Origin: Naegleria gruberi
Lineage: Eukaryota
Strand: one strand, 5' to 3'
DNA: 64,000 bases
Assembly (NCBI GenBank): GCA_000004985.1
Contig: GG738910.1
Made by a program: the position numbers and the translations under genes. This document shows positions 2,541 through 60,319 of the stretch, piece after piece. The number at the start of each line of letters is the position of its first letter. Within the stretch, counting starts at the first letter, position 1. The notes beneath the pieces are model-generated. The model was not told the DNA's origin. It searched no databases and worked only from the letters and a program-made list of their open reading frames with translations.

Positions 2541-5342
2541 ATGCAAAAACTGACTGTTAAACTTTTAAACAAGGCTTCCTCATCCATCAACGGCAGTTAT
2601 CTTCAACAGGTGTTGGCACAAAATTCATGCCGTCATCTATCCCAAAGAGCAGCCTTTTCTACATCAATAATTAAAAGAGAAGATGTTGTAGTTGAATCAC
2701 AGGACTCAAATGCCTCTTTCAGAAAACCTGCATGGGAAAATAACATCACAACAGCCACCCTCTTCGAAGAAAATCCTGCCATTGAAGAAGGTATTGTCGT
2801 TTCTCAAGGTTTATACGGAGAACAAGCAGCTAAGTTGGAAAGAGACAGCAGAAACCAAATTCAAAAGAAGTTTGAACAATTTATTGGTGAAATCGGACAA
2901 CAAATTGATGAAGTTAAATTGTTACTTAAACAAAAAGAATTAGAAACACGTTCTATGGATATTGCAAAGGCTAGGTATAGAAAAGATTTAAAATCAGCCA
3001 CATCAAGAAATCAAAGTGCTTGCCTTCCACCAGCAAAGAAAATAATGTTGGAATGGTATGAACCATTAACAAAAATTATTCGAGAAAAACAAGATGAAGT
3101 TAATTTCTCTTGTTCTAAAAAGAAATCATCATCAACCAATACTACAACCACCACTTCCCAAGACAATTTTGCCATTCCTCTCTACCTAACCTCCATTTCA
3201 GCTGAAAAACTCGCCATTATCACTCTCCATGAACTTTTGGCATCATGTCTCAAAGAAAGAGGTGGATCACCAGTTTCTTCAATTTCCTATCAAATTGGTG
3301 ACGCTATCCAAGCAGAAATTAACGTTGAAAAGTTGAAGAGGACAAACTATTTTAAACTCATCATTAAGAATCAAATGATTTACCACAATATTAACAAAAT
3401 CTCCAAATTGAAATTGAATGAATACGTTACATTCACAAAGGAAGAGCTCGTACAATTGGGCTCGTATTTAATTCAACTTGCTCTCTCCACTGCCCACGTA
3501 CCTCTTATCTCAAATCCAAAAGAAACAGTTCCTGCCTTCATTCACAGAAATATTACCAGAAATTCCAAGATTATTGGTGTAGTTGAACCAGATGATAATT
3601 TACTTCATTTAATTGGTAGAGAACACGTCGCTCAAGAAATATTATATCCAAATCATTTGCCAATGTTGGTTCCTCCAAATCCATGGACAAGTTCTACCGC
3701 TGGTGGTTACATCGCTCTTAAAGTTTTAATAATGAGAACAAGAGGTTCTCACTTACAGGCCTATACACTAAAGTCTGCCGAATTGAACGATCTTTTATCT
3801 GGTTTAAATACACTCAATGAAACTAGATGGAGAATCAATCCAACAGTATATGAAACAGTTCTTAAAGTTTGGAATTCAGGAGGTGGATTGGGAGAATTGC
3901 CATCAAGATTTGACGATACTCTTCCAGAAGAACCAGAAACTGATGATCCAGAAATTAAGAAAAAATGGAAACGTACAGTAGAAAAGATTAAGACTCACAA
4001 TAGAAACTTACACTCTCTCAGATGTGACATGCTTCTCAAACTTAAAGTTGCTGAAGATTTCAAGGATAACACTTTCTATTTCCCACACAACATCGATTTT
4101 AGAGGAAGAGCTTATCCAATCCCTCCTCATTTGAACCATCTTGGTGCTGATATCAACAGAGGTTTACTCACTTTTGAAAAGGGAATGCCAATTGGTAAGA
4201 GGGGTATCTTTTGGCTCAAGATTCACTTGGCAAACTTGTACGGAAAAGACAAATTACCATTCGATGAAAGAGTTCAATTTGTTGATGAATATATTAATGA
4301 AATTATTGATTCTGCCGATCAACCTTTAGAAGGAAACAGATGGTGGTTGAAATCTGAAAATCCATGGCAAACATTGGCAGCTTGTGTCGAACTTGCTGAG
4401 TGTTTGCGCTCTCCAAACCCAGAAGAATTCTTATCACATCTCCCAATTCAAATGGATGGTTCATGTAATGGTTTACAGCATTATGCTGCCCTTGGTAGAG
4501 ATAACCTTGGTGCTTTGCATGTGAACTTGTTACCAACCTCTAAGCCTATGGACGTCTATGTTGGTGTATTGGAAGTTGTAAAGAAACATATTGAAAGAGA
4601 TATGAAGGCAGGAAACAAACTTGCTAAACTTTTGCATGGTAATGTTTACAGGTCTACAATTAAGCAAACTGTCATGACCAGTGTGTATGGTGTGACATTT
4701 GTCGGAGCTAGAGAACAAATTCAAAAACGTCTTAAGGAAAAGAAGGAAGTTCCAGAAGATGATGTATTTGCCTGTGCCTCATACCTTGCTTCTATTACAC
4801 TTAAATCACTTGGTGAAGTTTTTAGTAGTGCTCAAAATATTATGGAATGGCTCAATGATTGTGCTCTTTTAATATCCTCATCAGATACACCTGTAAGCTG
4901 GATTACACCTTTGGGTTTACCTGTCATTCAACCATACAGATCTAAACGATCAAAGATTGTGAAGACGGTTATGCAAAGCATTACTCTTGCCGATTCATCT
5001 GATAAACTTCCAGTAAGCAGAACCAGACAAAAATCCGCATTCCCACCTAACTATGTTCACTCCCTTGATTCATCCCACATGTTTATGACTGCTAGTGCAT
5101 GTCAAAAAGAAGGAATTGAATTTGCTGCTGTTCACGACTCTTTCTGGTGTAATGCTGGTAACGTTGACAGAATGAACACAATTATCAGAGAACAATTCAT
5201 CAATCTCCATTCTCAACCTTTGCTTGAAGAATTGAATGCTACCTTTACTAATTTATATCCACAAATCCAATTCCCACCTCTTCCAAAGAAGGGATCTTTA
5301 GATTTAACTCGAGTTTTAGATGCCCCATATTTCTTCGATTAA
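2541..5342 (+). CDS. mitochondrial DNA-directed RNA polymerase, single-subunit T7-phage type
   Basis: 933-aa ORF with T7-like RNAP motifs (FPHNIDFRGRAYP, MDGSCNGLQHYAALGRD, AAVHDSFW) and an N-terminal presequence-like region. AAAATG start context. Confidence 0.9.
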   Translation: MQKLTVKLLNKASSSINGSYLQQVLAQNSCRHLSQRAAFSTSIIKREDVVVESQDSNASFRKPAWENNITTATLFEENPAIEEGIVVSQGLYGEQAAKLERDSRNQIQKKFEQFIGEIGQQIDEVKLLLKQKELETRSMDIAKARYRKDLKSATSRNQSACLPPAKKIMLEWYEPLTKIIREKQDEVNFSCSKKKSSSTNTTTTTSQDNFAIPLYLTSISAEKLAIITLHELLASCLKERGGSPVSSISYQIGDAIQAEINVEKLKRTNYFKLIIKNQMIYHNINKISKLKLNEYVTFTKEELVQLGSYLIQLALSTAHVPLISNPKETVPAFIHRNITRNSKIIGVVEPDDNLLHLIGREHVAQEILYPNHLPMLVPPNPWTSSTAGGYIALKVLIMRTRGSHLQAYTLKSAELNDLLSGLNTLNETRWRINPTVYETVLKVWNSGGGLGELPSRFDDTLPEEPETDDPEIKKKWKRTVEKIKTHNRNLHSLRCDMLLKLKVAEDFKDNTFYFPHNIDFRGRAYPIPPHLNHLGADINRGLLTFEKGMPIGKRGIFWLKIHLANLYGKDKLPFDERVQFVDEYINEIIDSADQPLEGNRWWLKSENPWQTLAACVELAECLRSPNPEEFLSHLPIQMDGSCNGLQHYAALGRDNLGALHVNLLPTSKPMDVYVGVLEVVKKHIERDMKAGNKLAKLLHGNVYRSTIKQTVMTSVYGVTFVGAREQIQKRLKEKKEVPEDDVFACASYLASITLKSLGEVFSSAQNIMEWLNDCALLISSSDTPVSWITPLGLPVIQPYRSKRSKIVKTVMQSITLADSSDKLPVSRTRQKSAFPPNYVHSLDSSHMFMTASACQKEGIEFAAVHDSFWCNAGNVDRMNTIIREQFINLHSQPLLEELNATFTNLYPQIQFPPLPKKGSLDLTRVLDAPYFFD

Positions 5343-9192: not shown

Positions 9193-10860
9193 ATGTCTCC
9201 ATACCCTACAACAGGCTTTGGATTTCATAGTATAGGGAAATTTTTGAAACAAGGAGATGATAAATCCTTATTACCTCATTTTCAACAGGCCGAAAACACC
9301 TCAAATATATTTATCTTAAGAAGATATAGATGGTTTTTGGTTGGTGTTTTCGTGTGTTTCTTTATGTGTTTTGTACGGTGGAATACTAATTCTGAGGATG
9401 AAATCAATAATAATACTGTGATCATAACCTCTGATCATAAAATTGGAAACAAGATTGAATCAATGCAAACTCATTCTACACTTGTGGTGAGTGAACAAGG
9501 CATTAGACTTGAACCAGAGGTGAAGCAGGTACCTATGGTTAAGGAGGATCCAAAACACACCTTCACCGGAATTTTATTACATTTTAAAAGAAGAAATGGT
9601 ATTAAGAAAATCCTTTCAATGATGATTAAATACCCTTTTATTTCTCAAGTAATTGTGTGGAATAACAATCCTGACGTTAGCATAACTCACCAAAATCTGA
9701 TAGAGGACTATCTTTCTGATGGAGAAAAATCAAAAACACTCGAAAAGTACAAGGAAATGGTTTTTATTCACAATCATAATGAAAATATTAAGGACAAAGC
9801 AAAATATTTAGCTTGTGAATTGGCAAATACTACAGCTTGTTTCTACTGTGATGATGATTGGGATATAACAAGATACGCCAACGCTCTACTAGCAGACTTC
9901 TACAATGAGCCTAGCGTTATGCATAGTGTAACAGAACCATACACGTATTACACAAACCTTGTTTGGTCCTTTTATGATTCAAATATTAATCTTCACACAG
10001 CTTTTGCTTGGATTGGTTGTGGGTCTATGTTCTTGAAGTCACTTGCTGTTAACCACCTCCAAAAAGTTGACAAGTTTTTGGAATCGAATCCAAAATTGAA
10101 AAATCTTGTTCCTCTGAGTGATATATTTTTCTCAATATGGCAAAATAATGCTCCTTCACAGATTGTTGCTAACATTGCAGAAATAAGTGTAGAGAAGGAA
10201 AATGTGGCATTTTCTAGTCAGGGTGGGTTTTTACAATTACAACATGAATCAAGTATGATGGCTATTAAGATTCTTCATGATGAACTCACATACAACTCTT
10301 TCTTTACAATATTCCCAAAGAAAGAGATTGAAAATCCATTTCCTCTCTTCCTTAAATCACCTTCTTCAAAGGATTCATTCTTATTTTATTCAGACTTGTT
10401 TCCGTTCTTATTGAAAAATGTTTCCTTTGACATTACAAACCATGTTCATGCAAAAAGAAGCACTAGAGATAACCTTCCTCAAGGTGCTGATGTTGATTTT
10501 TTTTACAACAACAACCCAACAAGGGCGGTTGATTCTGATCCATCATCTTGTTGGCAATCAAACAGAAACGTTGGCATGGACAGTTTTTTTGGAGTGGATC
10601 TGTATTCTGTTGTAACAGATATCGCTATTGAAATTATTTACTCACACACAAAAGATTTTCATGCAACCCTCAAAACAAGACACTCCATTGACAGGAAAAA
10701 TTGGGTTGACACAAGTGCAGCCAGCTATGAATCGAATAACTTTTCTCGCCACTCATTCAAAGACTCAGTAAGATATATCGAGTTCTTCACTCAAACTGGC
10801 TCAAGAAACAAATTTGGTATTTGTGATTTTAAAGTTTTCAAGAATGGAACCTCTATCTAA
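9193..10860 (+). CDS. type II membrane (Golgi glycosyltransferase-like) protein with C-terminal discoidin/F5-8 type C-like domain
   Basis: 555 aa. N-terminal signal-anchor WFLVGVFVCFFMCFV and a CDDDWD (DxD-like) motif. The C-terminal ...SCWQSNRNVGMDSFFGVDLYSV...ICDF resembles FA58C. Motif-level call only. Confidence 0.4.
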   Translation: MSPYPTTGFGFHSIGKFLKQGDDKSLLPHFQQAENTSNIFILRRYRWFLVGVFVCFFMCFVRWNTNSEDEINNNTVIITSDHKIGNKIESMQTHSTLVVSEQGIRLEPEVKQVPMVKEDPKHTFTGILLHFKRRNGIKKILSMMIKYPFISQVIVWNNNPDVSITHQNLIEDYLSDGEKSKTLEKYKEMVFIHNHNENIKDKAKYLACELANTTACFYCDDDWDITRYANALLADFYNEPSVMHSVTEPYTYYTNLVWSFYDSNINLHTAFAWIGCGSMFLKSLAVNHLQKVDKFLESNPKLKNLVPLSDIFFSIWQNNAPSQIVANIAEISVEKENVAFSSQGGFLQLQHESSMMAIKILHDELTYNSFFTIFPKKEIENPFPLFLKSPSSKDSFLFYSDLFPFLLKNVSFDITNHVHAKRSTRDNLPQGADVDFFYNNNPTRAVDSDPSSCWQSNRNVGMDSFFGVDLYSVVTDIAIEIIYSHTKDFHATLKTRHSIDRKNWVDTSAASYESNNFSRHSFKDSVRYIEFFTQTGSRNKFGICDFKVFKNGTSI

Positions 10861-11018
10861 TAAAATCCGTTGCAGTACTACTAATGGGACTGAATTGCAA
10901 TAAATTTAGCACTAGATATTAAAAAAAAAACAAAAATGGTGCTAGAGGAATTAACAGATGCCGAAAGACCTTCATCACAAAAGAAGAAAAAGGAAAACAA
11001 CCACTTCCACCCGATGCT

Positions 11019-11591
11019 ATGGGCCATTCGGGAGAAGTCTATCATCCTATTTTGACAAGGTCTGCAGGCTATTCAAATGAACAACAGAAACAGGAACACA
11101 CTTTTCTTGTGAGTCATACACATGGCTTTGAACAAATTGTGAAGGATGAAATTCTTTTACTTTTTGACTCATTAAATTTGATGTAATTTAATTGGTATGA
11201 AAAATTAAATCCGAAAATTAGGGTCCACGATTATCCAACAACTATTGCTGGTAAATTTATGAAAAAGGTGGAAAACTCGGTACCAAACTACCTAAAAACT
11301 TTGAGTGAGAGTCACAAAGTGACATTTGTTAATTTTTCTAATTTATTTGAAATTGAATTTTTATATTCTAGAAATGGATTATTAATATTTAATGTTTCTT
11401 CTAAAGGAAGTGATAATAATTTATTTATGGAAAATCTAGTTTATTTAGTCTGCCATTTAAATGCTATTCCTAGTATTGATTTTGTGTATTCATTTATTTG
11501 CATTGTTCCTGATATACCCTTTGATAAAGAGACTACAATGCCAATATTTGCAGAAACTATACCAAAAAGAGAACAAGATACTCAAACATAG
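11019..11591 (+). CDS. N-terminal part of a THUMP-type RNA methyltransferase: exon A 11019..11182, 39-nt intron 11183..11221, exon B 11222..11591 ending at in-frame TAG
   Basis: Exon A encodes ...FLVSHTHGFEQIVKDEILLLFDSLNL, resembling the THUMPD3 TGFEQ block. The GTAATT...TTAG intron contains an in-frame TAA, and splicing restores the frame. Exon B has a THUMP-like FEIEFLYSRNGLLIFNVSS. The same frame stays open beyond the TAG at 11589-11591. Confidence 0.45.
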
Positions 11592-11705
11592 AAACAATCC
11601 TTTGAACTATTCGAAAAATTATATTGCAAAAAGTTTGAAAAACAAAATCTTTATTCCAAGGATACCAACTTTAGGGCTACTGGTGTAAGAAAACAAACAA
11701 GTATT

Positions 11706-13073
11706 TTGAAGCATGACTACAAATCAATGGATATGGCCGCTGAGTATGGATATGGAATTGGGGAAACAATTTGCAAGGACATGAAGGTTAACCTGAAAAA
11801 GTATGACCTTGACATGTTAATTTATTTGGATATTGATAGAGTGTTTATAGGAATGCTATTGTCCCCTCCATTACATGCTTTAGAAGAATTGAAAATTAGT
11901 TCAGCATGTTCAGGACATGGTGGTTGCATCTCACCAAATAATTGTTCATGTGTCTCTGGATATTATGGAAGTGATTGTAGCCAATTTGATTGTTATGGAA
12001 CTGCCTCCACAAATACATCAACATGTACTAATCACGGTAGTTGTATATCCCCAAATAACTGTTCCTGCTTATCAGACTATTATGGAAAAGAGTGTACTCA
12101 ATATGATTGTTTTGGAACTATTTCAACAAATGGTTCAGTATGTTCTGGACACGGTACCTGTCTCTCACCAAATAACTGCTCATGCTTAGCTGGATATTAT
12201 GGAAATGATTGTAGTGAATTTGATTGTTACGAAACTGCCTCCACAAATGCATCAGCATGTTCTGGACATGGTGGTTGCATCTCACCAAATAATTGTTCTT
12301 GTTTAGATGGATACTACGGAAATGTTTGTAGTCAATTTGATTGTTATGGAACTGCCTCAACAAGACATTTTTCTTTGAATAATCAAGTTATTGATAGAAA
12401 TCTCAGTGAGGACGAATTGAATGAATTGAATTCATGTGATTTGATTTATTCATACACTAAACAAGATATTAGATTAACCTTCGGAAAATCTATCTTGAAA
12501 CCTCAAACAAGTTACATGCTTTGGAAAACTTTACTGATGGAAAATTCAATTTTACGAGACAAATTATTCCAACAATCACAATTAGTTACTTTTGTTGATC
12601 CATTTGCAGGAAGTGGTACTCTTTCACTCTCACTTAATTATCTCTTCACTGATAATGATCCTAAAGTTCAACTTTATAATATTGATTTCAATCTAGATGA
12701 AGTGAGTGTTATGAAGGATAATTGCAGCAAAAACAGAAATAATCATATTTTAAATTGTGATTCTAGATTCTTACCTTTTAGAAATGAAAGCATTGATGTT
12801 GTTATATCAGATATGCCATTTGGAGTTTTATGTGAAAATCACTCTAGAAACTCAAAGGTCTACCCAAAGATTGTAAAACAACTCGAAAGAATTGTTAAGC
12901 CTGATGGAATTGTAATGCTGTTGACAATTGAACTTACCTTACTGGAATCTCAACTGAATGCCAGAAATCGGTGGACATTCACAACACAAAAAGTAACACT
13001 TGGAGATTTAGGTAAGGAATCCAAGCAACCATTTACATTGGCAAGAAGAAACCTCCACAAAATAAATTTATGA
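11706..13073 (+). CDS. continuation of the same frame: 4 tandem EGF-like repeats followed by a class I SAM-dependent methyltransferase domain (THUMP-family, motif I FVDPFAGSGT, motif IV ISDMPFG)
   Basis: 455-aa ORF in the same frame as 11019..11591, separated only by a single TAG. LTFGKSILKPQTSYMLW precedes motif I, as in THUMPD-type MTases. Confidence 0.5.
   Translation: MKHDYKSMDMAAEYGYGIGETICKDMKVNLKKYDLDMLIYLDIDRVFIGMLLSPPLHALEELKISSACSGHGGCISPNNCSCVSGYYGSDCSQFDCYGTASTNTSTCTNHGSCISPNNCSCLSDYYGKECTQYDCFGTISTNGSVCSGHGTCLSPNNCSCLAGYYGNDCSEFDCYETASTNASACSGHGGCISPNNCSCLDGYYGNVCSQFDCYGTASTRHFSLNNQVIDRNLSEDELNELNSCDLIYSYTKQDIRLTFGKSILKPQTSYMLWKTLLMENSILRDKLFQQSQLVTFVDPFAGSGTLSLSLNYLFTDNDPKVQLYNIDFNLDEVSVMKDNCSKNRNNHILNCDSRFLPFRNESIDVVISDMPFGVLCENHSRNSKVYPKIVKQLERIVKPDGIVMLLTIELTLLESQLNARNRWTFTTQKVTLGDLGKESKQPFTLARRNLHKINL
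11901..12368 (+). repeat. 4 tandem 117-nt (39-aa) coding repeats, EGF-like C-x3-G-x-C-x4-C-x-C-x2-GYYG-x2-C; copies 1 and 4 nearly identical at nucleotide level
   Basis: Repeats start at about 11901, 12018, 12135 and 12252. Cysteine spacing and codon phase are conserved. Confidence 0.7.
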
Positions 13074-13303
13074 TCAGTAATCAATTAAACCTCTTTTGCT
13101 GACAAGTCATCCGGCCGTGTTCTGTAATCACATGTCATTAATGTAACAAGCAGAAGAAAGGCTAGATTTTTCCACATCAAAAAAACAAAAAAATATTTGG
13201 TAAGTGTTTGGCTGTTCTCACTCTTTGCTCTTACACTGCTCGTATTGATGATTTGATAATGATGATGCGATCGCAAAAACAACAACAGTAGTATACTATC
13301 AAG

Positions 13304-14399
13304 ATGATTTTCTTAGAAGCTGGAAACAAAATTATTCAAGAAATCCTTCTCAAGCAATTTGATGCTTCGTACGTATTTGATGTTTTTAGCTTGATGTTTT
13401 ACTAACAACACCACAACATTTAATCTTTAATCTATTCTTTATACTGTGTAAATTAATATAACAACAACATACCATGATTCAATTTATCATCGCTCACATA
13501 TTAACAACAAAAACAGAACAAGACAACCAAGCGTCCATGTTAACGGAGGTGATTTTGATGGTACTAAATTTGTTATTCAATCTGATGCTGGTAATAAGAA
13601 CCTTCTCACCTTGTCCATCTATGTTCATGGTGAAAAGGAATTTAATCAATATGGAGGTATTGAATTGGTCAAGAAAACTTTACCAGGATTGGATGTTAAA
13701 GCACCAGGTTTAACAGTCGATGATCAAAAACATACTTTCACAGTTACTATTGATGTTGAAAAGGAAGAAAAGAATAAGGACAAGTGGTTAAAGGAATTGC
13801 CACGTGTCAAAACTACATATATGAGTGCTGTCTTTTTGCAAGCCATGGATAAACACGCAAAGGGAGAACAATTCGAACCAATCAAAGTTCCATACAGACC
13901 AGATGAAAATATTTACATTATTTCTTATAAGGGCAAGTCTTTGGTTGTTGTTTATAGTATTTTGTTCAGAGATCCTGATGATGTCGTTTTTGCCAATGGT
14001 TTCTTGTGTGAATTCAAGGATGCCAAGAAGGATCGTGCTCTCAATGCTGCTCCAAATATGAACTTTTCACAAGGTCAATTGGCTGGTGAATTGGTTGACG
14101 TAAAGAGTGTTACTGAACCAAAGGACGAAAGAACTTTGAAGAAGGAAGGTTGGGGCTTTGTTTCTATTGGTTTGTTGGATAATCATACCAAGGCTGATAA
14201 GCAATTGAATACTGCTGAATTATTGCTTGGTTTCCGTTCATATTTGCACTACCATTTGAAGTGTATGAAGGCTTACATGCACATTCGTATGAGAGAATCT
14301 GTTGAAAAGTTAATGTTGAACTTGAATGCTGCTAAGGATTTGAGCGGTAAGAAGACTGAAAAGAAGACCATGTCTGGTAGAACTTTCAAACAACAATAA
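13304..14399 (+). CDS. Arp2/3 complex subunit 2 (ARPC2/p34-Arc), two exons: 13304..13368 and 13517..14399
   Basis: Exon 1 MIFLEAGNKIIQEILLKQFDA matches the ARPC2 N-terminus. Exon 2 ...GGDFDGTKFVIQSDAG...HYHLKCMKAYMHIRMR matches the ARPC2 C-terminal block YHIKCSKAYIHTRMR. The intron restores the frame. Confidence 0.85.
13369..13516 (+). other. intron (148 nt) of ARPC2 gene, donor GTACGT, TACTAAC branch-like motif at 13398-13404, acceptor AG 13515-13516
   Basis: The only GT...AG pair that joins the two homologous coding blocks in phase. Confidence 0.7.
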
Positions 14400-37884: not shown

Positions 37885-40320
37885 ATGAGTCAACAACAAT
37901 TCGTTGGGAATGGAAGCCCGCCAAATATTTCAACTACTTCTATGAATGCTGCTGCTACTAATACTACTACTGGTAATGTTGTGGTTGGTACCTCAACAAC
38001 ACCATCAACAAACACTGGGAATGTGGGAGGGATATCGAATGGTGCTGGAACAGCTTCCCTTAAAACCTCACCGAATGATCTGTTGCTGAATTTACGTAAA
38101 TACACGAACAAATTGTTGGAGATTAATGGAACAAATCAAGTGGTTTCTGTTCCTTCGAACGTTGGTGTTGGAAAAGAGGTTGCACAGCCTCTTGCTTCTC
38201 TCTCCACTCCGACACTGAACCTTAATCAAAATATTGAGGAGAATAGAAATAATCAACAAATTGAAGAGGAAAGAGTGGAACCACAACAAGTATTCAAAAT
38301 TCCTCAACAGCAAACAAGTAGACCAGCAAGTCCAAAAAGGAGTGAAAGTTTGGTGATAATGGATGACCAAATTTCGGATATTGAAAGTGTTACTGATAAT
38401 GACCAGAGTAATACTAGCAAAACAGTTGTAAATTATAGAGATTTAGAAGTGAAAAAGTGTTATGATATTATTTTCAAGCTAAGAAATAGGCTTGCTAAGG
38501 AAAAGGAAAAGAATGATCAACAGGAAAGAAGAAAGGAAGATTCCACAAAGATGCTAGGAAAGTTAATTGATCATTATAAATCGGAAAACTCTAGATTGAT
38601 TCAACAATTAGATTTACTGAGAAGAGATTCTGATGCACAAATTGAGGAACAGTTACATCAGATGAATGATTTGAGGATTTCAAACTTTACTCTATCAGAA
38701 GAAATTAACATTCTAAGAAATTCAGTGAACATTGAGAAACAAAAAGGAGATCAAGATATTGAGAGACACATTAGAGAAAAGTCAAAAACACAATCAGAGT
38801 TAATTGAATGTAAAAGGGAAAATTCCAAACTTAGAGAAACAATAATGGTGCTGGAAGAAAATATTAAAAAGGCAGAACTCAACGCAGCAGAATCTGTGAA
38901 AAATTTTGAGGAAATTGAAATACCATCATTGAAAAGAAAGTGTGGGTATTACGAAAAGACAATCTCTGATTTGGAAAAGAAACTAGATGAGATTCGGAAA
39001 GATCAAGAACGGTCTGTGAATCAACATGTGGAGAGATTTAAATCAAAAGAAGCAGTCATGGGAGAAACCATCAAGCGATTGGAAGAAGATTTGAAAAAGC
39101 AACGAGAATCAATGAAGCAAAACTCCAATTCAAGTTCAGAGGAGAAGAAGCAACTTGAAATTCAATTGAAAGAACAAGTTAATTTGAATGATGAAACAAG
39201 ATTAGAATTGGCTAATTTAAAGTCTTCTCTAGAGGATATAGAAGTTAACATGTTGAATCACCTCATTCAAGAACATGAAGAATTAATTATTGAAGTTTCT
39301 CAAATGGATGCTTTTATGACTGAGGTATTTTCAGTAAAATCAAGAAAGGAAATTAAGAGATTGGTGACTGAAAATTTGGAACTCAAGAATCAATTGAGTT
39401 TGATGAATGAACAATACGAGATTAACAAAAAGCAACTCCAACACGCAACTCTTGAATTGGATGAACTAAAATCTTCCTTCAATAAGGGTGATCAAGTGTT
39501 GAGTCAATTAGAGAACCAAAGAAAGACTCAATCTGAGAGACATAGAATAGAATTGGAAGAATTGAGAACAGAAATGAGAAATTTTACAATTTCACAAAAA
39601 GCAGAAAAAGAGAACTTGTTAGATTTGTTGGACAATACCAAAACTCAACTGGATACTTGCCAACATAAAATGGAGCAAATGCAACTGGAAAGAAGTGATG
39701 GCCAAAAAGAGGTTCAATACCTCAGAAAAAGAAACTCTGAGCTTGAAACTCAACTTCTCAACGCAGAATCAGATAGACAAAGATTGGTTTCAGAAGTTTC
39801 CAATCTTAATTGTACATTAGATCAATTGAGAGATGAAGTCGATGCCAAGAACGATGAAAATAGAAAGATTGTAGAGCAATCAAGATCTTCCATGCAATCT
39901 ATTCAAGTCAAACTCAACAGAGACCAACAAATCTATCAGAAGAGTGAATATGATTGGAATCAAAAAGTGAAACATCTGAATGATATGGTACTTCAAGCGG
40001 AGTACAATCTTTCGGAATATAAAAAGAAGTACAAGGAAGAAATTAGCAGCTTTAATAATGATTTAATTATGAGGCAACAACAAATTGAAAGTTTACAAAC
40101 CGATGTCCAAAGAATGAAACAGGAAGGCATGTCTATTACAGCTCAAAACAAGAAAGACTTGGATGTGAGAGAACAGGAAATTCAAAAGATCAAGAGAGAA
40201 AAACAACAATTAGAGCATTCAATTGTTCAAAAAGAAAGAGAGAAAGACTCATTCAAACTGAGATTGGAAATGATGGAAAGAGAATTATCAAGACTGAAAT
40301 CTCAATATAATGTAAAGTAA
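37885..40320 (+). CDS. long coiled-coil protein (E/K/Q/L heptad-rich, S/T/N-rich head)
   Basis: 811 aa. About 650 aa of uninterrupted heptad-like charged sequence. Confidence 0.55.
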   Translation: MSQQQFVGNGSPPNISTTSMNAAATNTTTGNVVVGTSTTPSTNTGNVGGISNGAGTASLKTSPNDLLLNLRKYTNKLLEINGTNQVVSVPSNVGVGKEVAQPLASLSTPTLNLNQNIEENRNNQQIEEERVEPQQVFKIPQQQTSRPASPKRSESLVIMDDQISDIESVTDNDQSNTSKTVVNYRDLEVKKCYDIIFKLRNRLAKEKEKNDQQERRKEDSTKMLGKLIDHYKSENSRLIQQLDLLRRDSDAQIEEQLHQMNDLRISNFTLSEEINILRNSVNIEKQKGDQDIERHIREKSKTQSELIECKRENSKLRETIMVLEENIKKAELNAAESVKNFEEIEIPSLKRKCGYYEKTISDLEKKLDEIRKDQERSVNQHVERFKSKEAVMGETIKRLEEDLKKQRESMKQNSNSSSEEKKQLEIQLKEQVNLNDETRLELANLKSSLEDIEVNMLNHLIQEHEELIIEVSQMDAFMTEVFSVKSRKEIKRLVTENLELKNQLSLMNEQYEINKKQLQHATLELDELKSSFNKGDQVLSQLENQRKTQSERHRIELEELRTEMRNFTISQKAEKENLLDLLDNTKTQLDTCQHKMEQMQLERSDGQKEVQYLRKRNSELETQLLNAESDRQRLVSEVSNLNCTLDQLRDEVDAKNDENRKIVEQSRSSMQSIQVKLNRDQQIYQKSEYDWNQKVKHLNDMVLQAEYNLSEYKKKYKEEISSFNNDLIMRQQQIESLQTDVQRMKQEGMSITAQNKKDLDVREQEIQKIKREKQQLEHSIVQKEREKDSFKLRLEMMERELSRLKSQYNVK

Positions 40321-40381: not shown

Positions 40382-43117
40382 TTATTGACCCAACAATTTG
40401 GTTCTCAAGACGTATGGCAAGATACCACCATGCTTGAAGTATTCAAGTTCTGGTTCAGTATCGAATCTCAAAATTGTGGTGAATTCCTTGACATTTTCGT
40501 TACCAGTAACAGAGACAGTAACTTCTTGGAATGGCTTCATACCAGCAGACAAATCAATGCTGAATTGTTCCTTACCAGTCAAACCCAAAGAGTCAGCACT
40601 TTGGCCTTCCTTGAATTGCAATGGAATGATACCCATACCAGCCAAGTTAGATCTGTGGATTCTTTCGAAAGAGGTAGCAATAACAGCCTTAACTCCCAAA
40701 AGATATGGACCCTTAGCAGCCCAATCTCTTGATGAACCTGAACCATATTGTTCACCACCAATAACGATCAATTCGTTACCAGCTTCACGATACTTGACGG
40801 AAGCATCGAAAACTGAAACAGCTTCACCAGATGGAACGTGGAGAGAAATTGGACCTGGTTTACCGATCATCTTATTGTAAAGTCTAACGTTAGCAAAAGT
40901 ACCTCTGACCATGACTTCATCGTTACCACGACGAGCACCATAAGTGTTAAAGTCCTTTCTTTCAACACCTCTTTCCAAGAGATATTGAGCAGCAGATGAC
41001 TTCAATGAGATACTACCAGCTGGAGAAATGTGGTCAGTAGTAGTGAAATCACCCAAATTCAACAAACAGTAAGCATCCTTAATTGGCTTGCTTTCATTGG
41101 TTTGAGATTCAACAGCCTTGAAGAATGGTGGATCGTGAATATAAGTTGACTTTTCATCCCATGGATACAACATGCTTTCTGGAGCATCCAACTTATTCCA
41201 GTTATCAGTACCCAAAGCAATCTTTTCATAGACAGACTTGAACATTTCTGGAAGAACATTGTTAGTGACACATTCTTGAACTTCTTCGTGAGTTGGCCAA
41301 ATGTCTCTCAAGAAAACTGGTTGATTAGTGGTTGGATTGACACCCAATGGTTGAGTTTCAAAATCAATCTTAACATTACCAGCAAGAGCATAAGCAACAA
41401 CCAAAGGTGGAGAAGCCAAATAGTTAGCTTGGACAATTGGGTGAACACGAGCTTCAAAGTTTCTGTTACCAGACAAAACTGAAGCAGAAACCAAGTTGGA
41501 ATTAACAATAGTTTCATGAACAACTTCTGGCAATTCACCAGAGTTACCAATACAAGTCATACAACCATAACCAACAACGTTGAAACCCAACTTGTCAAGA
41601 TATCCTTGCAAACCAGACTTAGTCATATATTCAGAAACGACACCTGAACCTGGTGAGAGAGATGTCTTAATGTATGGATTAACAGTCAATCCTTGTTCTA
41701 CAGCCTTCTTGGCAAGCAAAGCAGCAGCAAGCATGACAGAAGGATTTGAGGTATTTGTACAACTGGTAATAGCAGAAATAACAACTGAACCATGAGTTAA
41801 ATTGTACTTCTTTCCTTGATATTCAATTTCAACAGTCTTTTCAGAATCTTCAGCTGGAATTTCGAATCCCTTGAAACCTCTCTTGGCAGTCAAACCTTCC
41901 TTGAATTCCTTATGGACATCAGTCAAAGAGACACGATCGTGTGGTCTCTTTGGACCAGCCAAAGATGGAACAACAGTAGTCAAATCAAGTTCCAATTTAG
42001 CACTATAACGAATGTTAGCAGCATCTGAATCAGATGTGACGAATAACTTTTGAGCCTTCAAATATTCAGCAACCAAAGCAACCTTCTTTTCATCTCTGTT
42101 AGATTGTTTCAAGAAAGTAAGAGTAGTGTTATCAATTGGGAAGAAACCCATAGTAGCACCATATTCTGGAGCCATGTTTGAAATAGTGGCACGATCAGCA
42201 ACAGACAAGTTATTGACACCTTCACCATAGAATTCAACAAACTTTCCGACAACACCCAACTTTCTCAAGTTTTGAGTAAGAGTCAAAACCAAATCAGTAG
42301 CAGTAGCAGCACCAGTCAATTTACCAGTTAATTTGTAACCAACAACTTCTGGCAAAACCATGGCACTTGGTTGACCAAGCATGGCAGCTTCAGCTTCAAT
42401 ACCACCAACACCCCAACCTAAAACACCCAAACCATTGATCATAGTAGTGTGTGAATCAGTACCAACCAATGAATCTGGATATAACAAAGCTTGTAAATTA
42501 TTTTCCTTATCAGTTGATGAAAGTTCTTCATTATTTTCAAAAACAACTCTAGCCAAATATTCCAAGTTAACTTGATGGACAATACCACTTCCTGGTGGAA
42601 CAATTTGCAAATTCTTGAAGGCCTTGCTACCCCACTTTAAGAACTTGAATCTTTCATAGTTTCTATTGAATTCCTTTTCTTGATTTTGTTGTAAAGCATC
42701 CTTTGAACCAAAGTCATCAACTTGAACACTGTGATCGATAACCAAATCAACAGGAACAAGTGGATTAACATTAGCTGGATTACCACCGAGTCTCTTGACA
42801 GCATCACGAATAGCAGCCAAATCGACAACAGCAGGAACACCAGTAAAGTCTTGCATCAAAACTCTAGCTGGTTTGAATGGAATTTCAATAGACTTCTTGC
42901 TTGATTCTTCCCAGTTAAGGATCTTTTCAACATCTTCCTTCAAGACAGCAAATTCATCACAATTTCTTACACAATTTTCCAACAAGACACGAATACAGAA
43001 AGGGAGAGTATCGAGTCTATCGTCCTTCAATTCAGGTAAGCTAAAGTATTTATACTTGCCACCGTTAACTTCGAGAGAACGAGCAACGCTTTCAAATGGA
43101 TTTGGTTGTGCTGGCAT
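40382..43117 (-). CDS. cytoplasmic aconitate hydratase / iron regulatory protein 1-like (ACO1 family)
   Basis: 911 aa. The N-terminus [32 protein letters not shown] and the spacing of downstream conserved aconitase blocks match ACO1/IRP1. Confidence 0.93.
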
Positions 43118-58204: not shown

Positions 58205-60319
58205 TTAAACACTTGAGGAGGTTGAAGGAGAACTCACTTTCAATTGATCTTGTAATTTGGCTTGTAACTTTTTCCTGTTTTCAGCATTCTTTCTTTTGGA
58301 TCTTAGTAACAGGACTGTTGTAAAGATTACAATAATCAAAATAATTAAAAGAATGACCACCACACCAACAACACCCACAGTGATACCAATTGTTACTGCT
58401 GACTGATCAGAAGAGGTATATGTTGAGGTTTGTACCTTATTTTCACTCAGTGTCTTCTTAACAGACATGTCAATGACTCCAAATGAAGTAAGGTGACTCG
58501 TTTCACATTTGACTGATATTACAACTTGGAAATTGGTGTTATCTATTGTCTTGTTCAAGAAGGAGAGAATAGTAGTTTTCAACCCTGAAGATTCCCAAGT
58601 GTTTTTCAAAGTATTGTAATAGGCACAGGAATAATTCAAGTGCTCAGATTTACCAATTGAAACATTGAAGAAAGCTAATGAAATTGGATCTTGTAAACCC
58701 TTGATTGCAATTTCTTGAGCCGATTGTCTGTCATAGAGTGAAATGGACATAACTGTACTCTTCAATTTGTCACTATTCGAAAATAAAACTGGAGCAGAAT
58801 TAGTGCTTGGATCGTAAATGGACGAAACTAACACAATCTCGCTTACATTATTAATTTGATCACTCATTGTCGCTGGAAATTCAAAACTAGTCTTGAAACC
58901 GTCAAAGGAAACTGATTTGGAATCAAGTTCTGTAACATCCTTCACAACTGTCAACTTTTCAACATAACCGTTTACCAAAGAAGTGTTCAAACATGTAGAA
59001 TTTGCAGCCACAATCTTTCCATAACAATACTTGTATTCACAATATTGTCCAAAGTAATTTTCTTGGCATTCAACAACAGGTTCTTCCTCATTCATCCAAT
59101 AATCTCCAATGTCAGTTTCTCTCCAGTCTGGTATTGTGAGATTAAGTGGTTTTGTGACGCATAATGTACCATTAGAATTAATGGAATAATTTGTTGAATT
59201 ACACGAATATTCCATCATTAGAATTCTTTGATTATTGGTATCGGTTACTGTTATGGCCATAGAGGAAACTCCTGGTTTAGACAGAATGTTGATAGACACA
59301 CTTTCAGGACCTGACATGATTGTAGTTCCAGATACGGTTTGAATAATACCAGTACGCAAATCAATTCTTCTCAATCTGTGATTCCAACTGTCGGCAATGT
59401 ACAAATCATTTTGTAATCCCAAGAATAAATCTCGAGGACTGTTAATCATGGCAGAAGTTGCTGCCGAACCGTCACCTGCAATACCTCCATTTCCTGTTCC
59501 ACATATGGTTGAGATTATTCCAGTGGCAGCTGTTATTTTTCTGATTCTGTTGTTTTGAGTATCAGCAATATAAATGTCACCATTAGACATGATAGCAACA
59601 GCTTGAGGACCATTCAACTTGGCAGATGTTGACAATACGTTATCTGTAAATCCTGATGAACCTGCTGTTCCAGCAATTGTTGTAATAATACCAGTAAATA
59701 TATCAAGTTTTCTGACAATATGGTTAAGAGTGTCTGAAATGTACAAATATTTCTGTGTTGTGGTATCGAATGTAACTCCTCTTGGACCATTAAGCATGGC
59801 TTGAGTAGCTATTTTACCATCGCCTGAAAACCCAGCTGTCAAGTTGCCAGCAACAATAACGAGCTGACCTGTCATTAAATTTAACTTTCGAATAATATTA
59901 TTACCACTCTCAGCAATGTATAACGCATTCTCTGTAGTACTCATGGTAATCTGTCTAGGTTCATTGAGTTTCGAATATCTTGCTTTGAACTTTCCACCAA
60001 CGAGTGGTGATTCAGCAAAACCTTTCTCACCAGTTCCACATAAAGTCAGTAAACTGCCATTCGAATGAATAAACTTCAATTGATGATTGCCAGTATCAGC
60101 AATCAACACTCTTGAATAATTAGAAACCCTTACTCCAGCTGGCCAAACTAGAGCATAGTTATTGCCAGCATCAGCAATAGTTTTATAACTTGTGGCCGTT
60201 GGCGTTAATTGACCATTGACATGTTGTTGATCTAGCTGTGTCAGTTGACTAAAGAGCAGAGTTGTTATGATCGTTATTATTAAATGTAGAATAGTCATAG
60301 ATGAAACTGTTTGCTGCAT
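58205..60319 (-). CDS. type I membrane NHL-repeat (6-bladed beta-propeller) protein with EGF-like module, GPS-like autoproteolysis motif (HLTSFGV), single TM and short cytoplasmic tail
   Basis: 704 aa. Signal peptide. Repeated YIADTQNNRIRKI / YIADSWNHRLRRI NHL motifs. CQENYFGQYCEYKYC. ...VKCETSHLTSFGV lies 89 aa before the C-terminus, followed by TM VTIGITVGVVGVVVILLIILIIVIF. Confidence 0.7.
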   Translation of the reverse strand: MQQTVSSMTILHLIITIITTLLFSQLTQLDQQHVNGQLTPTATSYKTIADAGNNYALVWPAGVRVSNYSRVLIADTGNHQLKFIHSNGSLLTLCGTGEKGFAESPLVGGKFKARYSKLNEPRQITMSTTENALYIAESGNNIIRKLNLMTGQLVIVAGNLTAGFSGDGKIATQAMLNGPRGVTFDTTTQKYLYISDTLNHIVRKLDIFTGIITTIAGTAGSSGFTDNVLSTSAKLNGPQAVAIMSNGDIYIADTQNNRIRKITAATGIISTICGTGNGGIAGDGSAATSAMINSPRDLFLGLQNDLYIADSWNHRLRRIDLRTGIIQTVSGTTIMSGPESVSINILSKPGVSSMAITVTDTNNQRILMMEYSCNSTNYSINSNGTLCVTKPLNLTIPDWRETDIGDYWMNEEEPVVECQENYFGQYCEYKYCYGKIVAANSTCLNTSLVNGYVEKLTVVKDVTELDSKSVSFDGFKTSFEFPATMSDQINNVSEIVLVSSIYDPSTNSAPVLFSNSDKLKSTVMSISLYDRQSAQEIAIKGLQDPISLAFFNVSIGKSEHLNYSCAYYNTLKNTWESSGLKTTILSFLNKTIDNTNFQVVISVKCETSHLTSFGVIDMSVKKTLSENKVQTSTYTSSDQSAVTIGITVGVVGVVVILLIILIIVIFTTVLLLRSKRKNAENRKKLQAKLQDQLKVSSPSTSSSV

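What the first reader, a model, noticed from the sequence alone, without database searches (positions are those of the whole stretch)
10923..13073. THUMP-type RNA methyltransferase reading frame with four EGF-like repeats inserted and a single in-frame TAG
One frame is open for about 2.1 kb. It encodes a THUMP-like N-terminus (HGFEQIVKDEI, FEIEFLYSRNGLLIFNVSS), four cysteine-rich EGF-like modules, and a THUMP-family class I methyltransferase core (LTFGKSILKPQTSYMLW, FVDPFAGSGT, DMPFG). EGF modules are extracellular disulfide domains, so their presence between the THUMP and catalytic parts of a cytosolic RNA methyltransferase is architecturally odd. The only interruption is one TAG at 11589-11591. 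This could be a sequencing error, a polymorphic nonsense mutation, or a true boundary between two genes. A 39-nt intron (11183-11221) is needed upstream.
Basis: partly seen in the sequence, partly recalled or inferred. Interest (0 to 1): 0.6.

Follow-up and report, generated by a model that had tools for sequence, protein, structure and literature searches.

The report
Decaying methyltransferase gene with captured EGF repeats
This is a broken duplicate copy of a Naegleria gruberi RNA methyltransferase gene that has two premature stops, two frameshifts and a stray 465-base piece of an EGF-repeat gene, so the odd "enzyme plus EGF" architecture is most likely genomic debris and not a new protein design.

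Summary
The sequence observation is real. One frame (10923-13073) carries a Trm14/THUMPD3-like methyltransferase, four 39-aa EGF-like units and a TAG at 11589-91. The window is Naegleria gruberi, and the public model XP_002670926.1 covers only 11727-13073.

An intact N. gruberi paralog (XP_002670961.1, ~95% identical, same scaffold) and three intronless orthologs show what happened:
- The TAG replaces an invariant Trp (TGG->TAG).
- A -1 frameshift at 10994-97 disconnects the ancestral ATG (10936).
- A -1 frameshift at 13016-17 destroys the conserved C-terminal GxxATIYICKKK strand.
- The EGF block (11898-12362, 465 nt) is absent from every relative. It splits the THUMP/MTase junction (ELKI|RHF).

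The four units diverged under purifying selection (dN/dS 0.14-0.39, dS 0.3-1.1). They were therefore probably imported ready-made from one of Naegleria's giant EGF-array genes. No donor was found.

The window copy sits beside the single-copy Arp2/3 p34 gene, as in other Naegleria, so the ancestral-locus copy appears to be the one decaying.

Verdict: a young pseudogene with an ectopic insertion. It is ordinary, of low interest, and probably mis-annotated in the public record.

The parts
10936..10938 (+). Ancestral start codon (MV...), now out of frame with the body of the gene
   Evidence: The frame from 10930 reads TKMVLEELTDAERPSSQKKKKE. This matches the paralog P0001 N-terminus MVNQEG..PSSQKKKKKE.
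10994..10997 (+). Lesion 1: -1 frameshift in an A-run (GAAAACAA, where the paralog protein implies GAAAAACAA)
   Evidence: Three-frame translation: SSQKKKKE is in one frame and KQPLPPDAMGH in another, whereas P0001 reads SSQKKKKKEKQPLPPDAMGH continuously. The N-terminal extension is not conserved in the orthologs, so this lesion alone need not be disabling; ATG 11019 could serve as a start.
11019..11588 (+). N-terminal (pre-THUMP, ferredoxin-like-domain-equivalent) region of the methyltransferase
   Evidence: About 95% identical to P0001 by tblastn. The family profile aligns FLVSHTHGFEQIVKDEI to the first strand/helix of Trm14 3TLJ, though weakly at 3.7 bits. No Pfam hit.
11184..11186 (+). Lesion 2: in-frame TAA, with a 6-nt length difference just upstream; Gln in the paralog
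   Evidence: The window reads DSLNLM*FNWYEK and P0001 reads DS--NLQFNWYEK. Orthologs are coding here, and W89 and P95 just downstream are invariant.
11183..11221 (+).
   Evidence: The paralog translates it (FNWYEKLNPKIRV identical). The N. fowleri and N. lovaniensis genes are single uninterrupted ORFs of 1782 and 1725 nt.
11589..11591 (+). Lesion 3: TAG at the position of an invariant Trp (TGG->TAG, one G->A transition)
   Evidence: P0001 has QAWKQSFELF, N. lovaniensis and N. fowleri have MAWKQSFELF, and P0004 has PIWNQSFDLF. W221 is invariant in A2.
11625..11852 (+). THUMP-like domain
   Evidence: Pfam THUMP scores 15.5 bits, E=0.024 (cutoff 20.6) in the window. The same region of P0001, P0003 and P0005 scores 20.4, 18.1 and 19.2 bits.
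11727..13073 (+). Extent of the public gene model NAEGRDRAFT_74071 / XP_002670926.1 (448 aa), which starts inside the THUMP domain
   Evidence: P0002 is 100% identical to the window translation from MDMAAEYG onward.
11898..12362 (+). Lesion 4: 465-nt in-frame insertion encoding ~4 EGF-like units of 39 aa (24 Cys) at the THUMP/MTase junction
   Evidence: It is absent from the paralog (ELKI|RHFSL contiguous) and from three orthologs. TRF period 117 x 4. EGF_2 x 4. Between-unit dN/dS is 0.14-0.39 and dS 0.33-1.06. The nearest relatives are Naegleria/Acrasis giant EGF-array proteins at <=55% identity. There are no TSD/TIR at the edges. By my reading of the Cys pattern, the block starts at Cys2 of one module and ends after Cys1 of a fifth, so the breakpoints are not at domain borders.
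12588..13004 (+). Class I SAM methyltransferase domain (UPF0020/RlmKL-Trm14 type), with motif I VDPFAGSGT at 12594-12620 and motif IV DMPFG at 12810-12824
   Evidence: Pfam UPF0020 E=8.8e-13. The family profile hits Trm14 3TLJ at E=1e-6. NCBIfam Trm14_Arch is the best hit but far below its cutoff. Window-specific substitutions at invariant residues: T367I, I450N and G481E, the last following the DMPFGVLC segment.
13016..13017 (+). Lesion 5: -1 frameshift in a G-run (AAGGAA, where the relatives imply AAGGGAA), which replaces the conserved C-terminal strand
   Evidence: The frame from 12992 reads GIQATIYIGKKKPPQNKF, equivalent to P0001 GIQATIYICKKKPATVNKF and ortholog G(M)xATIYICKKK. The frame in use reads GKESKQPFTLARRNLHKINL*.
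13304..14399 (+). Neighbouring Arp2/3 complex p34 gene (NAEGRDRAFT_81704), used as the synteny anchor
   Evidence: Pfam P34-Arc E=1.8e-62. It is single copy in N. gruberi. It lies near the methyltransferase in N. fowleri and N. lovaniensis, and on the same 8,144-bp contig in a fourth relative.

Best explanation
Window 10936-13106 is a young, non-processed pseudogene. It is the positional (ancestral-locus) copy of a Naegleria Trm14/THUMPD3-like RNA guanine-N2 methyltransferase gene.

The gene was duplicated within the N. gruberi lineage. The other copy (NAEGRDRAFT_74053) stayed intact and presumably does the job. This copy, released from constraint, accumulated the following:
- two nonsense mutations (CAA->TAA at 11184, TGG->TAG at 11589);
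- two single-base deletions in homopolymer runs (10994-97 and 13016-17);
- missense changes at invariant residues;
- a 465-nt ectopic insertion.

The insertion is a stretch of about four already-diverged EGF-like repeat units. It was copied from one of the many Naegleria genes that encode long arrays of this 39-aa module, most plausibly as filler or templated DNA during break repair or ectopic recombination. The mechanism is inferred, not shown.

The insertion is in frame and stop-free because it was copied in sense orientation from coding sequence and is recent. This has roughly a 1-in-6 chance for orientation plus phase. It does not imply that the chimera is selected. The 'THUMP-EGF-methyltransferase' architecture is therefore not a functional protein design.
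For: - Organism and annotation: P0002 (N. gruberi XP_002670926.1) is 100% identical to 11727-13073.
- Intact paralog: P0001 (XP_002670961.1, 563 aa, same 243,952-bp scaffold) is ~95% identical on both sides of the insert and lacks it.
- Stops: the TAG falls on an invariant Trp, and the TAA falls inside sequence that is coding in the paralog and orthologs.
- Orthologs in N. fowleri and N. lovaniensis are single intronless ORFs.
- Both frameshifts are shown by three-frame translation, with the conserved peptide continuing in the other frame.
- Missense changes: where all three outgroups agree, the window copy carries 6 derived changes (including W->stop, T367I, I450N, G481E) against 1 for the paralog, excluding the frameshifted tail.
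- Insert history: the insert units differ by 11-28% in nt with dN/dS 0.14-0.39. This is far more than the ~5% aa divergence of the host copies, so the units diverged as coding sequence before insertion.
- Repeat family: the 39-aa repeat is abundant in giant Naegleria/Acrasis proteins (1994 representative hits).
- Position: Arp2/3 p34 is single-copy and adjacent here, and it is linked to the methyltransferase in three other genomes.
- Genetic code: neighbouring genes (555-aa ORF, p34, RNA polymerase, aconitase) are clean long ORFs under the standard code.
Against: - No transcript, read-level or population data could be consulted. N. gruberi is absent from the contig index.
- The excess of derived substitutions is not statistically significant: 6 vs 1 gives two-sided binomial p~0.13 by my calculation, and 10 vs 5 is also not significant (counts).
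- 493 codons after the TAG remain open, and the SAM-binding and catalytic motifs are intact. Residual expression of a truncated product is therefore not excluded.
- The donor of the EGF block was not found (best 55% identity), so the insertion mechanism is inferred.
Confidence: 0.8

Rival explanations
1. This is a functional chimeric neo-gene. The annotated 448-aa product (ATG 11727; half a THUMP domain + 4 EGF units + methyltransferase), or a read-through product, is expressed and has a new role.
For: The ORF 11706-13073 is open for 455 codons. The insert is in frame and all Cys are intact. Motifs I and IV are intact, and UPF0020 scores as well as in the paralog. JGI/NCBI annotate it as a protein.
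Against: - The product would lack the whole N-terminal domain and the first part of THUMP, the RNA-binding module.
- It loses the conserved C-terminal strand through a frameshift.
- It carries substitutions at invariant residues, including G481E after the DMPFGVLC segment.
- By eye, no hydrophobic leader follows any candidate start (MGHSGEV.., MDMAAEYG..), so 24 cysteines would sit in the reducing cytosol.
- The insert breakpoints cut through an EGF module.
- No relative has this architecture.
Confidence: 0.08
2. This is an intact THUMP-EGF-methyltransferase fusion gene, and its apparent lesions are sequencing or assembly errors.
For: Both frameshifts lie in homopolymer runs, and both stops are single-transition changes from sense codons.
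Against: Four independent errors in 2.1 kb would be needed, while the flanking genes are clean and match their orthologs. The TAA site also has a 6-nt length difference from the paralog. Missense changes at invariant sites accompany the lesions. The annotation pipeline also saw the TAG, since its model starts downstream of it.
Confidence: 0.05
3. The window copy and NAEGRDRAFT_74053 are two diverged haplotypes (alleles) of one locus that the assembler laid out as separate loci. The EGF insertion and lesions would then be a null allele, not a fixed pseudogene.
For: Both proteins are on one scaffold and are highly similar, at 95% aa. The genome is not haploid, but that is my own recollection and was not checked here.
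Against: About 5% amino-acid divergence is high for alleles. UniProt/GenBank accession order places the paralog ~16 gene models upstream of the window copy, apparently on the other strand; this is an inference. It is not within the 64-kb window. The adjacent p34 gene is represented only once.
Confidence: 0.05

Closest known systems
Archaeal Trm14 (tRNA m2G6 methyltransferase, PDB 3TLJ) and its eukaryotic counterparts THUMPD3 and THUMPD2 (TRMT112-dependent m2G methyltransferases; PMC8599901, PMC11014329)
   Same: The N-terminal domain, THUMP and UPF0020 class I methyltransferase occur in the same order. The profile of the Naegleria family hits Trm14 at E=1e-6. Trm14_Arch is the best NCBIfam hit. 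Motif IV is D-x-P-F-G (DMPFG), and motif I is DPFAGSGT.
   Different: The window copy is interrupted by two stops, two frameshifts and a 155-aa EGF insert. Even the intact Naegleria proteins are distant: THUMP is sub-threshold in Pfam, and the NCBIfam scores are far below the equivalog cutoffs. Their substrate (tRNA G6/7, U6 G72 or another) is unknown.
Duplicated (non-processed) pseudogenes
   Same: A near-identical intact paralog exists on the same scaffold. The copy has multiple independent disabling lesions, excess change at conserved sites, and retained flanking genomic context with no poly-A or retroposition signature.
   Different: The decaying copy appears to be the one at the ancestral syntenic position, not the daughter copy. 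It has additionally captured an in-frame coding fragment from an unrelated gene family.
Heterolobosean giant EGF-array proteins (e.g. N. gruberi NAEGRDRAFT_63708, _82303, _70916, _53247; N. fowleri FDP41_005437; Acrasis kona AKO1_010380)
   Same: The 39-aa unit, C-x5-C-x5-C-x-C-x8-C-x4-C spacing and Pfam EGF_2/EGF_Teneurin signatures are the same.
   Different: Here there are only ~4 units, embedded in a methyltransferase frame. Identity to any retrieved array is at most 55% over the block and at most 67% per unit, so none of these is the donor.
Templated or filler-DNA insertions at repaired double-strand breaks, and ectopic gene conversion
   Same: A foreign genomic segment of a few hundred bp is inserted without target-site duplication or terminal repeats. 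Its breakpoints are unrelated to domain borders.
   Different: The donor and the junction microhomology could not be examined, so the mechanism is only inferred.

Membership tests
THUMP-domain RNA m2G methyltransferase (Trm14/THUMPD2/THUMPD3 type) | UPF0020-type class I SAM methyltransferase domain | tested here: met
   Pfam PF01170 E=8.8e-13, 48.8 bits, cutoff 22.3. The family profile against Trm14 3TLJ gives E=1e-6.
THUMP-domain RNA m2G methyltransferase (Trm14/THUMPD2/THUMPD3 type) | SAM-binding motif I (D/E-P-x-x-G-x-G) and catalytic motif IV (D/N-x-P-F/Y-G) | tested here: met
   Read directly from the sequence: VDPFAGSGT at 12594-12620 and DMPFG at 12810-12824. Both are invariant in the family alignment.
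THUMP-domain RNA m2G methyltransferase (Trm14/THUMPD2/THUMPD3 type) | THUMP domain upstream of the methyltransferase domain | tested here: inconclusive
   Pfam PF02926 scores 15.5 bits (E=0.024) in the window and 20.4, 18.1 and 19.2 bits in P0001, P0003 and P0005. All are at the equivalent position and all are just under the 20.6-bit cutoff. The AlphaFold model was too poor to test the fold (mean pLDDT 36.9).
THUMP-domain RNA m2G methyltransferase (Trm14/THUMPD2/THUMPD3 type) | N-terminal ferredoxin-like domain preceding THUMP | tested here: inconclusive
   The only support is a 3.7-bit alignment of QFLVTHTHGFEQIVKDEI to Trm14 residues 2-28. There is no Pfam hit, and the structure model is unusable.
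THUMP-domain RNA m2G methyltransferase (Trm14/THUMPD2/THUMPD3 type) | Continuous reading frame encoding all domains (needed to be a working member) | tested here: not met
   TAA at 11184-86, TAG at 11589-91, -1 frameshifts at 10994-97 and 13016-17, and the 465-nt insert at the domain junction.
THUMP-domain RNA m2G methyltransferase (Trm14/THUMPD2/THUMPD3 type) | m2G-forming activity on tRNA/snRNA, with a TRMT112 partner | not testable with these tools
   This needs biochemistry. It is known for human THUMPD3 and THUMPD2 from PMC8599901 and PMC11014329 (titles and abstracts).
EGF-like domain (Pfam EGF_2) | Six-cysteine module with the C-x-C-x(2)-G-[YF]-x-G-x(2)-C core | tested here: met
   PF07974 E=1.6e-21 in 4 stretches. 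There are 6 Cys per 39-aa unit, conserved in all units. The block aligns with WIF-1 EGF repeats 2YGQ.
EGF-like domain (Pfam EGF_2) | Secretory/extracellular context (signal peptide or TM) allowing disulfide formation | not tested
   No predictor was run. By eye, no hydrophobic leader follows any candidate start (MVLEEL.., MGHSGEV.., MDMAAEYG..).
Duplicated (non-processed) pseudogene | Clear homology to an intact parent or paralog in the same genome | tested here: met
   P0001 aligns at 94.8% and 95.4% identity over 306 + 218 aa by tblastn.
Duplicated (non-processed) pseudogene | Disabling lesions relative to the intact relatives | tested here: met
   Two stops, two frameshifts and one large insertion.
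Duplicated (non-processed) pseudogene | Relaxed selective constraint on the lineage | tested here: inconclusive
   There are 6 window-derived changes against 1 paralog-derived change at sites where three outgroups agree (10 vs 5 by majority). Neither difference is significant. dN/dS is not computable without the paralog DNA.
Duplicated (non-processed) pseudogene | No functional transcript or protein | not testable with these tools
   No N. gruberi transcript data are reachable.

The most novel reading that the evidence does not exclude
The locus could be a snapshot of domain accretion without introns. In that reading, a block of EGF repeats was copied in frame into the inter-domain linker of a cytosolic RNA methyltransferase, and a truncated EGF-methyltransferase chimera (the annotated 448-aa model) is still expressed and on its way to a new function, not to decay.
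Probability: 0.06. Interest if true: 0.5.

Novelty: new member of a known kind. Interest (0 to 1): 0.15.

Why it matters
The main value is for annotation. NAEGRDRAFT_74071 / XP_002670926.1 (UniProt D2VYC5) is carried in public databases as a protein with an EGF + methyltransferase architecture. Such entries seed spurious 'novel domain combinations' in domain-architecture surveys.

It is also a small, clean example of two evolutionary processes in an intron-poor protist:
- gene relocation by duplication followed by decay of the ancestral-locus copy;
- ectopic capture of coding repeats.

It bears on no open question in RNA modification or EGF biology.

Tried and rejected
1. Intron explanations.
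- The 39-nt 'intron' (11183-11221) is rejected because the segment is coding and conserved in the paralog and in intronless orthologs.
- I looked by eye for a GT...AG pair that would remove the TAG in frame. The candidate GTs at 11486, 11488 and 11509, paired with the AG of the TAG itself, give lengths of 106, 104 and 83 nt, none a multiple of 3.
- Splicing out the EGF block from GT 11899 to AG 12364 removes 466 nt and breaks the frame.

2. Codon reassignment or read-through of TAG. Rejected because the position is an invariant Trp and the neighbouring genes use the standard code.

3. Donor search for the EGF block.
- There is no other copy in the window.
- The word-indexed search returned only <=51% hits and did not even return the self protein, so its negative result is weak.
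- The exhaustive representative search, followed by local BLASTP and ungapped scans, gave at most 55% identity over the block and at most 67% per unit.
- P0064, a 4,502-aa EGF/NHL protein on the same scaffold, is only 44-52% identical.

4. Transposon hallmarks. No target-site duplication or terminal inverted repeats were found at the insert edges.

5. Independent sequence evidence. Exact-product look-ups for five N. gruberi products (P0001, P0002, the 110-aa and 455-aa ORFs of this locus, and the clean 555-aa neighbour) found nothing. N. gruberi is simply not in that index.

6. Structure. The AlphaFold model of the intact paralog, built from a 4-sequence alignment, had mean pLDDT 36.9 and was unusable, so no fold search was run.

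7. Literature. Searches for Naegleria + EGF/pseudogene and for intron statistics returned nothing relevant.

8. tRNA, Rfam and tandem-repeat scans of the whole window found nothing else bearing on the finding.
Full report
**Observation.** Frame 3 of the + strand is open from 10923 to the TGA at 13071-73, apart from TAA 11184-86 and TAG 11589-91. Tandem Repeats Finder reports a 117-nt period with 4.0 copies at 11901-12363, 76% matches and no indels. Pfam finds four EGF_2 stretches (E=1.6e-21) and a UPF0020 class I methyltransferase domain (E=8.8e-13), both above their curated cutoffs. The THUMP match at 11625-11852, after the TAG, is sub-threshold (15.5 bits against 20.6). With local base composition, 493 stop-free codons has P~1e-17, so this is real former coding sequence.

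**Identity of the window.** A search with the EGF-less reconstruction returned five proteins.
- P0002, N. gruberi XP_002670926.1 / NAEGRDRAFT_74071 (448 aa), is 100% identical to 11727-13073. The public gene model therefore starts at an ATG inside the THUMP region, downstream of the TAG.
- P0001, N. gruberi XP_002670961.1 / NAEGRDRAFT_74053 (563 aa), lies on the same 243,952-bp scaffold. It has no EGF domains and is ~95% identical to the window on both sides of the EGF block.
- The other three are orthologs from N. lovaniensis (P0003), N. fowleri (P0005) and an unnamed relative (P0004), at 48-51% identity.

The window holds only one copy.

**What the relatives show.**
1. The TAG aligns with a Trp that is invariant in all four intact proteins (QAWKQSFELF). 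It is a one-step TGG->TAG change.
2. The orthologs also translate it, and it includes invariant W89 and P95. The N. fowleri and N. lovaniensis genes are single uninterrupted ORFs. The TAA at 11184-86 is therefore a second nonsense codon (Gln in the paralog), with a 6-nt length change beside it.
3. The paralog's start (MV...SSQKKKKKEKQPLPPDAMGH) is found in the window split across two frames. The ATG is at 10936, and a -1 shift lies in the A-run 10994-97.
4. The conserved C-terminal peptide G-x-x-ATIYICKKK is found in the window only in another frame (GIQATIYIGKKK, frame from 12992). A base is missing from the G-run at 13016-17. The frame in use ends in unrelated sequence.
5. The EGF block, 11898-12362 (465 nt, 155 codons), is absent from all relatives. 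The paralog reads ELKI|RHFSL without a break. The insertion sits at the THUMP/methyltransferase junction, immediately before the invariant R324-x-F326.

**Substitution pattern.** I excluded the frameshifted tail and the unalignable N-terminus. Where all three outgroups agree, the window copy has 6 derived states: A203T, W221stop, I296M, T367I, I450N and G481E (after DMPFGVLC). The paralog has 1. By majority rule the counts are 10 against 5. The direction fits relaxed constraint, but the counts are too small for significance. The case rests on the lesions, not on rates.

**Origin of the EGF block.**
- Divergence of the units: the four units differ by 11-28% at the nucleotide level, with dS 0.33-1.06 and dN/dS 0.14-0.39, and all cysteines are retained. 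This is much older divergence, under purifying selection, than the ~5% protein divergence between the two methyltransferase copies. The units were therefore already diverged members of a working EGF array when the block was copied in; they did not amplify in place.
- Related arrays: an exhaustive search of 1.84 billion representatives found 1994 hits. The best are giant proteins (up to ~7,000 aa) with many tandem copies of the same 39-aa unit. Those looked up are from N. gruberi, N. fowleri and Acrasis kona.
- No donor: none of the retrieved arrays is close enough to be the donor, with at most 55% identity over the block and at most 67% per unit.
- Breakpoints: by my reading of the cysteine pattern, the block begins at Cys2 of one module and ends just after Cys1 of a fifth. 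The breakpoints ignore domain borders.
- Edges: no target-site duplication or terminal repeats flank it.

I infer a DNA-level ectopic capture (templated repair or illegitimate recombination). Being sense and in phase has about a 1-in-6 chance and needs no selection.

**Genomic context.**
- Synteny: in N. fowleri and N. lovaniensis the methyltransferase lies two genes from Arp2/3 p34. In a fourth relative both genes share an 8,144-bp contig. In the window the p34 gene (13304-14399) is the immediate downstream neighbour, and N. gruberi has a single p34 protein. The damaged copy is therefore the positional ortholog, and the intact copy is the relocated duplicate.
- Location of the paralog: UniProt and GenBank accession order is positional for the window genes I checked. 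By that order the intact paralog lies about 16 gene models upstream, probably on the opposite strand. This is an inference from numbering, not from sequence.

**Family assignment.** A profile of the Naegleria proteins hits archaeal Trm14 (tRNA m2G6 methyltransferase, 3TLJ) at E=1e-6, including a weak match of the N-terminal FL(V/I)THTHGFEQIVK motif to Trm14's first strand/helix. NCBIfam's best hit is Trm14_Arch, far below its equivalog cutoff. THUMP scores 18-20.4 bits at the same position in each intact homolog, just under the 20.6 cutoff. The DMPFG motif IV resembles the D-x-P-F-G of THUMPD2/THUMPD3; that comparison rests on my own knowledge. The intact family is best described as a divergent Trm14/THUMPD3-like enzyme. 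The window copy fails the requirement of a continuous frame. An AlphaFold model from the shallow alignment was unusable (pLDDT 36.9), so the THUMP and N-terminal folds remain untested structurally.

**Rivals.**
- A functional chimera (the annotated 448-aa model) cannot be excluded without expression data. It would lack the RNA-binding N-terminal half and the conserved C-terminal strand, carry changes at invariant residues, and place 24 cysteines in the cytosol with no leader peptide.
- Sequencing error would require four independent errors in 2.1 kb among otherwise clean genes.
- A mis-assembled allele is unlikely, given the divergence, the separate position on the scaffold and the single adjacent p34 gene.

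**Verdict.** This is a young pseudogene of a duplicated RNA methyltransferase that has captured a fragment of an EGF-array gene. Novelty is low, being a new instance of a known kind. The practical consequence is that XP_002670926.1 should be treated as a pseudogene fragment.

Noticed in passing
window 13304-14399 (+); L001 12952-16055; L004 12037-14916: The Arp2/3 p34 gene is linked to the methyltransferase in all Naegleria genomes seen. In N. fowleri and N. lovaniensis a NamZ-like gene lies between them and p34 is on the opposite strand. In the N. gruberi window p34 is directly adjacent, on the same strand, and the NamZ-like gene is missing. This points to a local rearrangement at the locus that also holds the decaying gene. 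By eye, p34 appears to have one intron (GTACGT 5' site at ~13368, TACTAAC at 13401-07).
   Followed up: partly
window 58205-60319 (-) and ~62170-63738 (+): These are NHL/teneurin-NHL repeat ORFs. They are 23-28% identical to parts of P0064 (NAEGRDRAFT_53247), a 4,502-aa EGF+NHL repeat protein encoded further along the same scaffold. EGF/NHL giant-protein genes thus cluster near the locus, though none retrieved is the donor of the insert.
   Followed up: partly
window 11727-13073: The public annotation XP_002670926.1 / UniProt D2VYC5 presents this locus as a 448-aa protein beginning inside the THUMP domain. It is probably a pseudogene fragment and a source of a spurious EGF+UPF0020 domain architecture in databases.
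   Followed up: yes
window 37885-40320 (+): This 811-aa ORF has no Pfam hit at E<=1e-5. It lies in the only part of the window with a strong strand composition bias (AT skew 0.27 and GC skew 0.18 in 38001-40000). It may be a purine-rich, low-complexity coding region.
   Followed up: no
window 2541-5342 (+) and 40382-43117 (-): These are a single-subunit phage-type (mitochondrial) RNA polymerase and an aconitase. Both are clean, intron-free long ORFs, and I used them as internal controls for the standard genetic code and for assembly quality.
   Followed up: partly
window 9193-10860 (+): This 555-aa ORF (NAEGRDRAFT_74070) lies immediately upstream of the pseudogene. It has only a weak F5/8 type C match at its C-terminus (E=0.0047, below cutoff). 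It has no counterpart upstream of the methyltransferase in N. fowleri.
   Followed up: no
tool behaviour: The word-indexed homolog search with the 155-aa EGF block collected only 322 candidates and did not return the 100%-identical self protein P0002. Negative results of that tool for cysteine-rich repeats are therefore unreliable. The exhaustive representative search did return it.
   Followed up: yes
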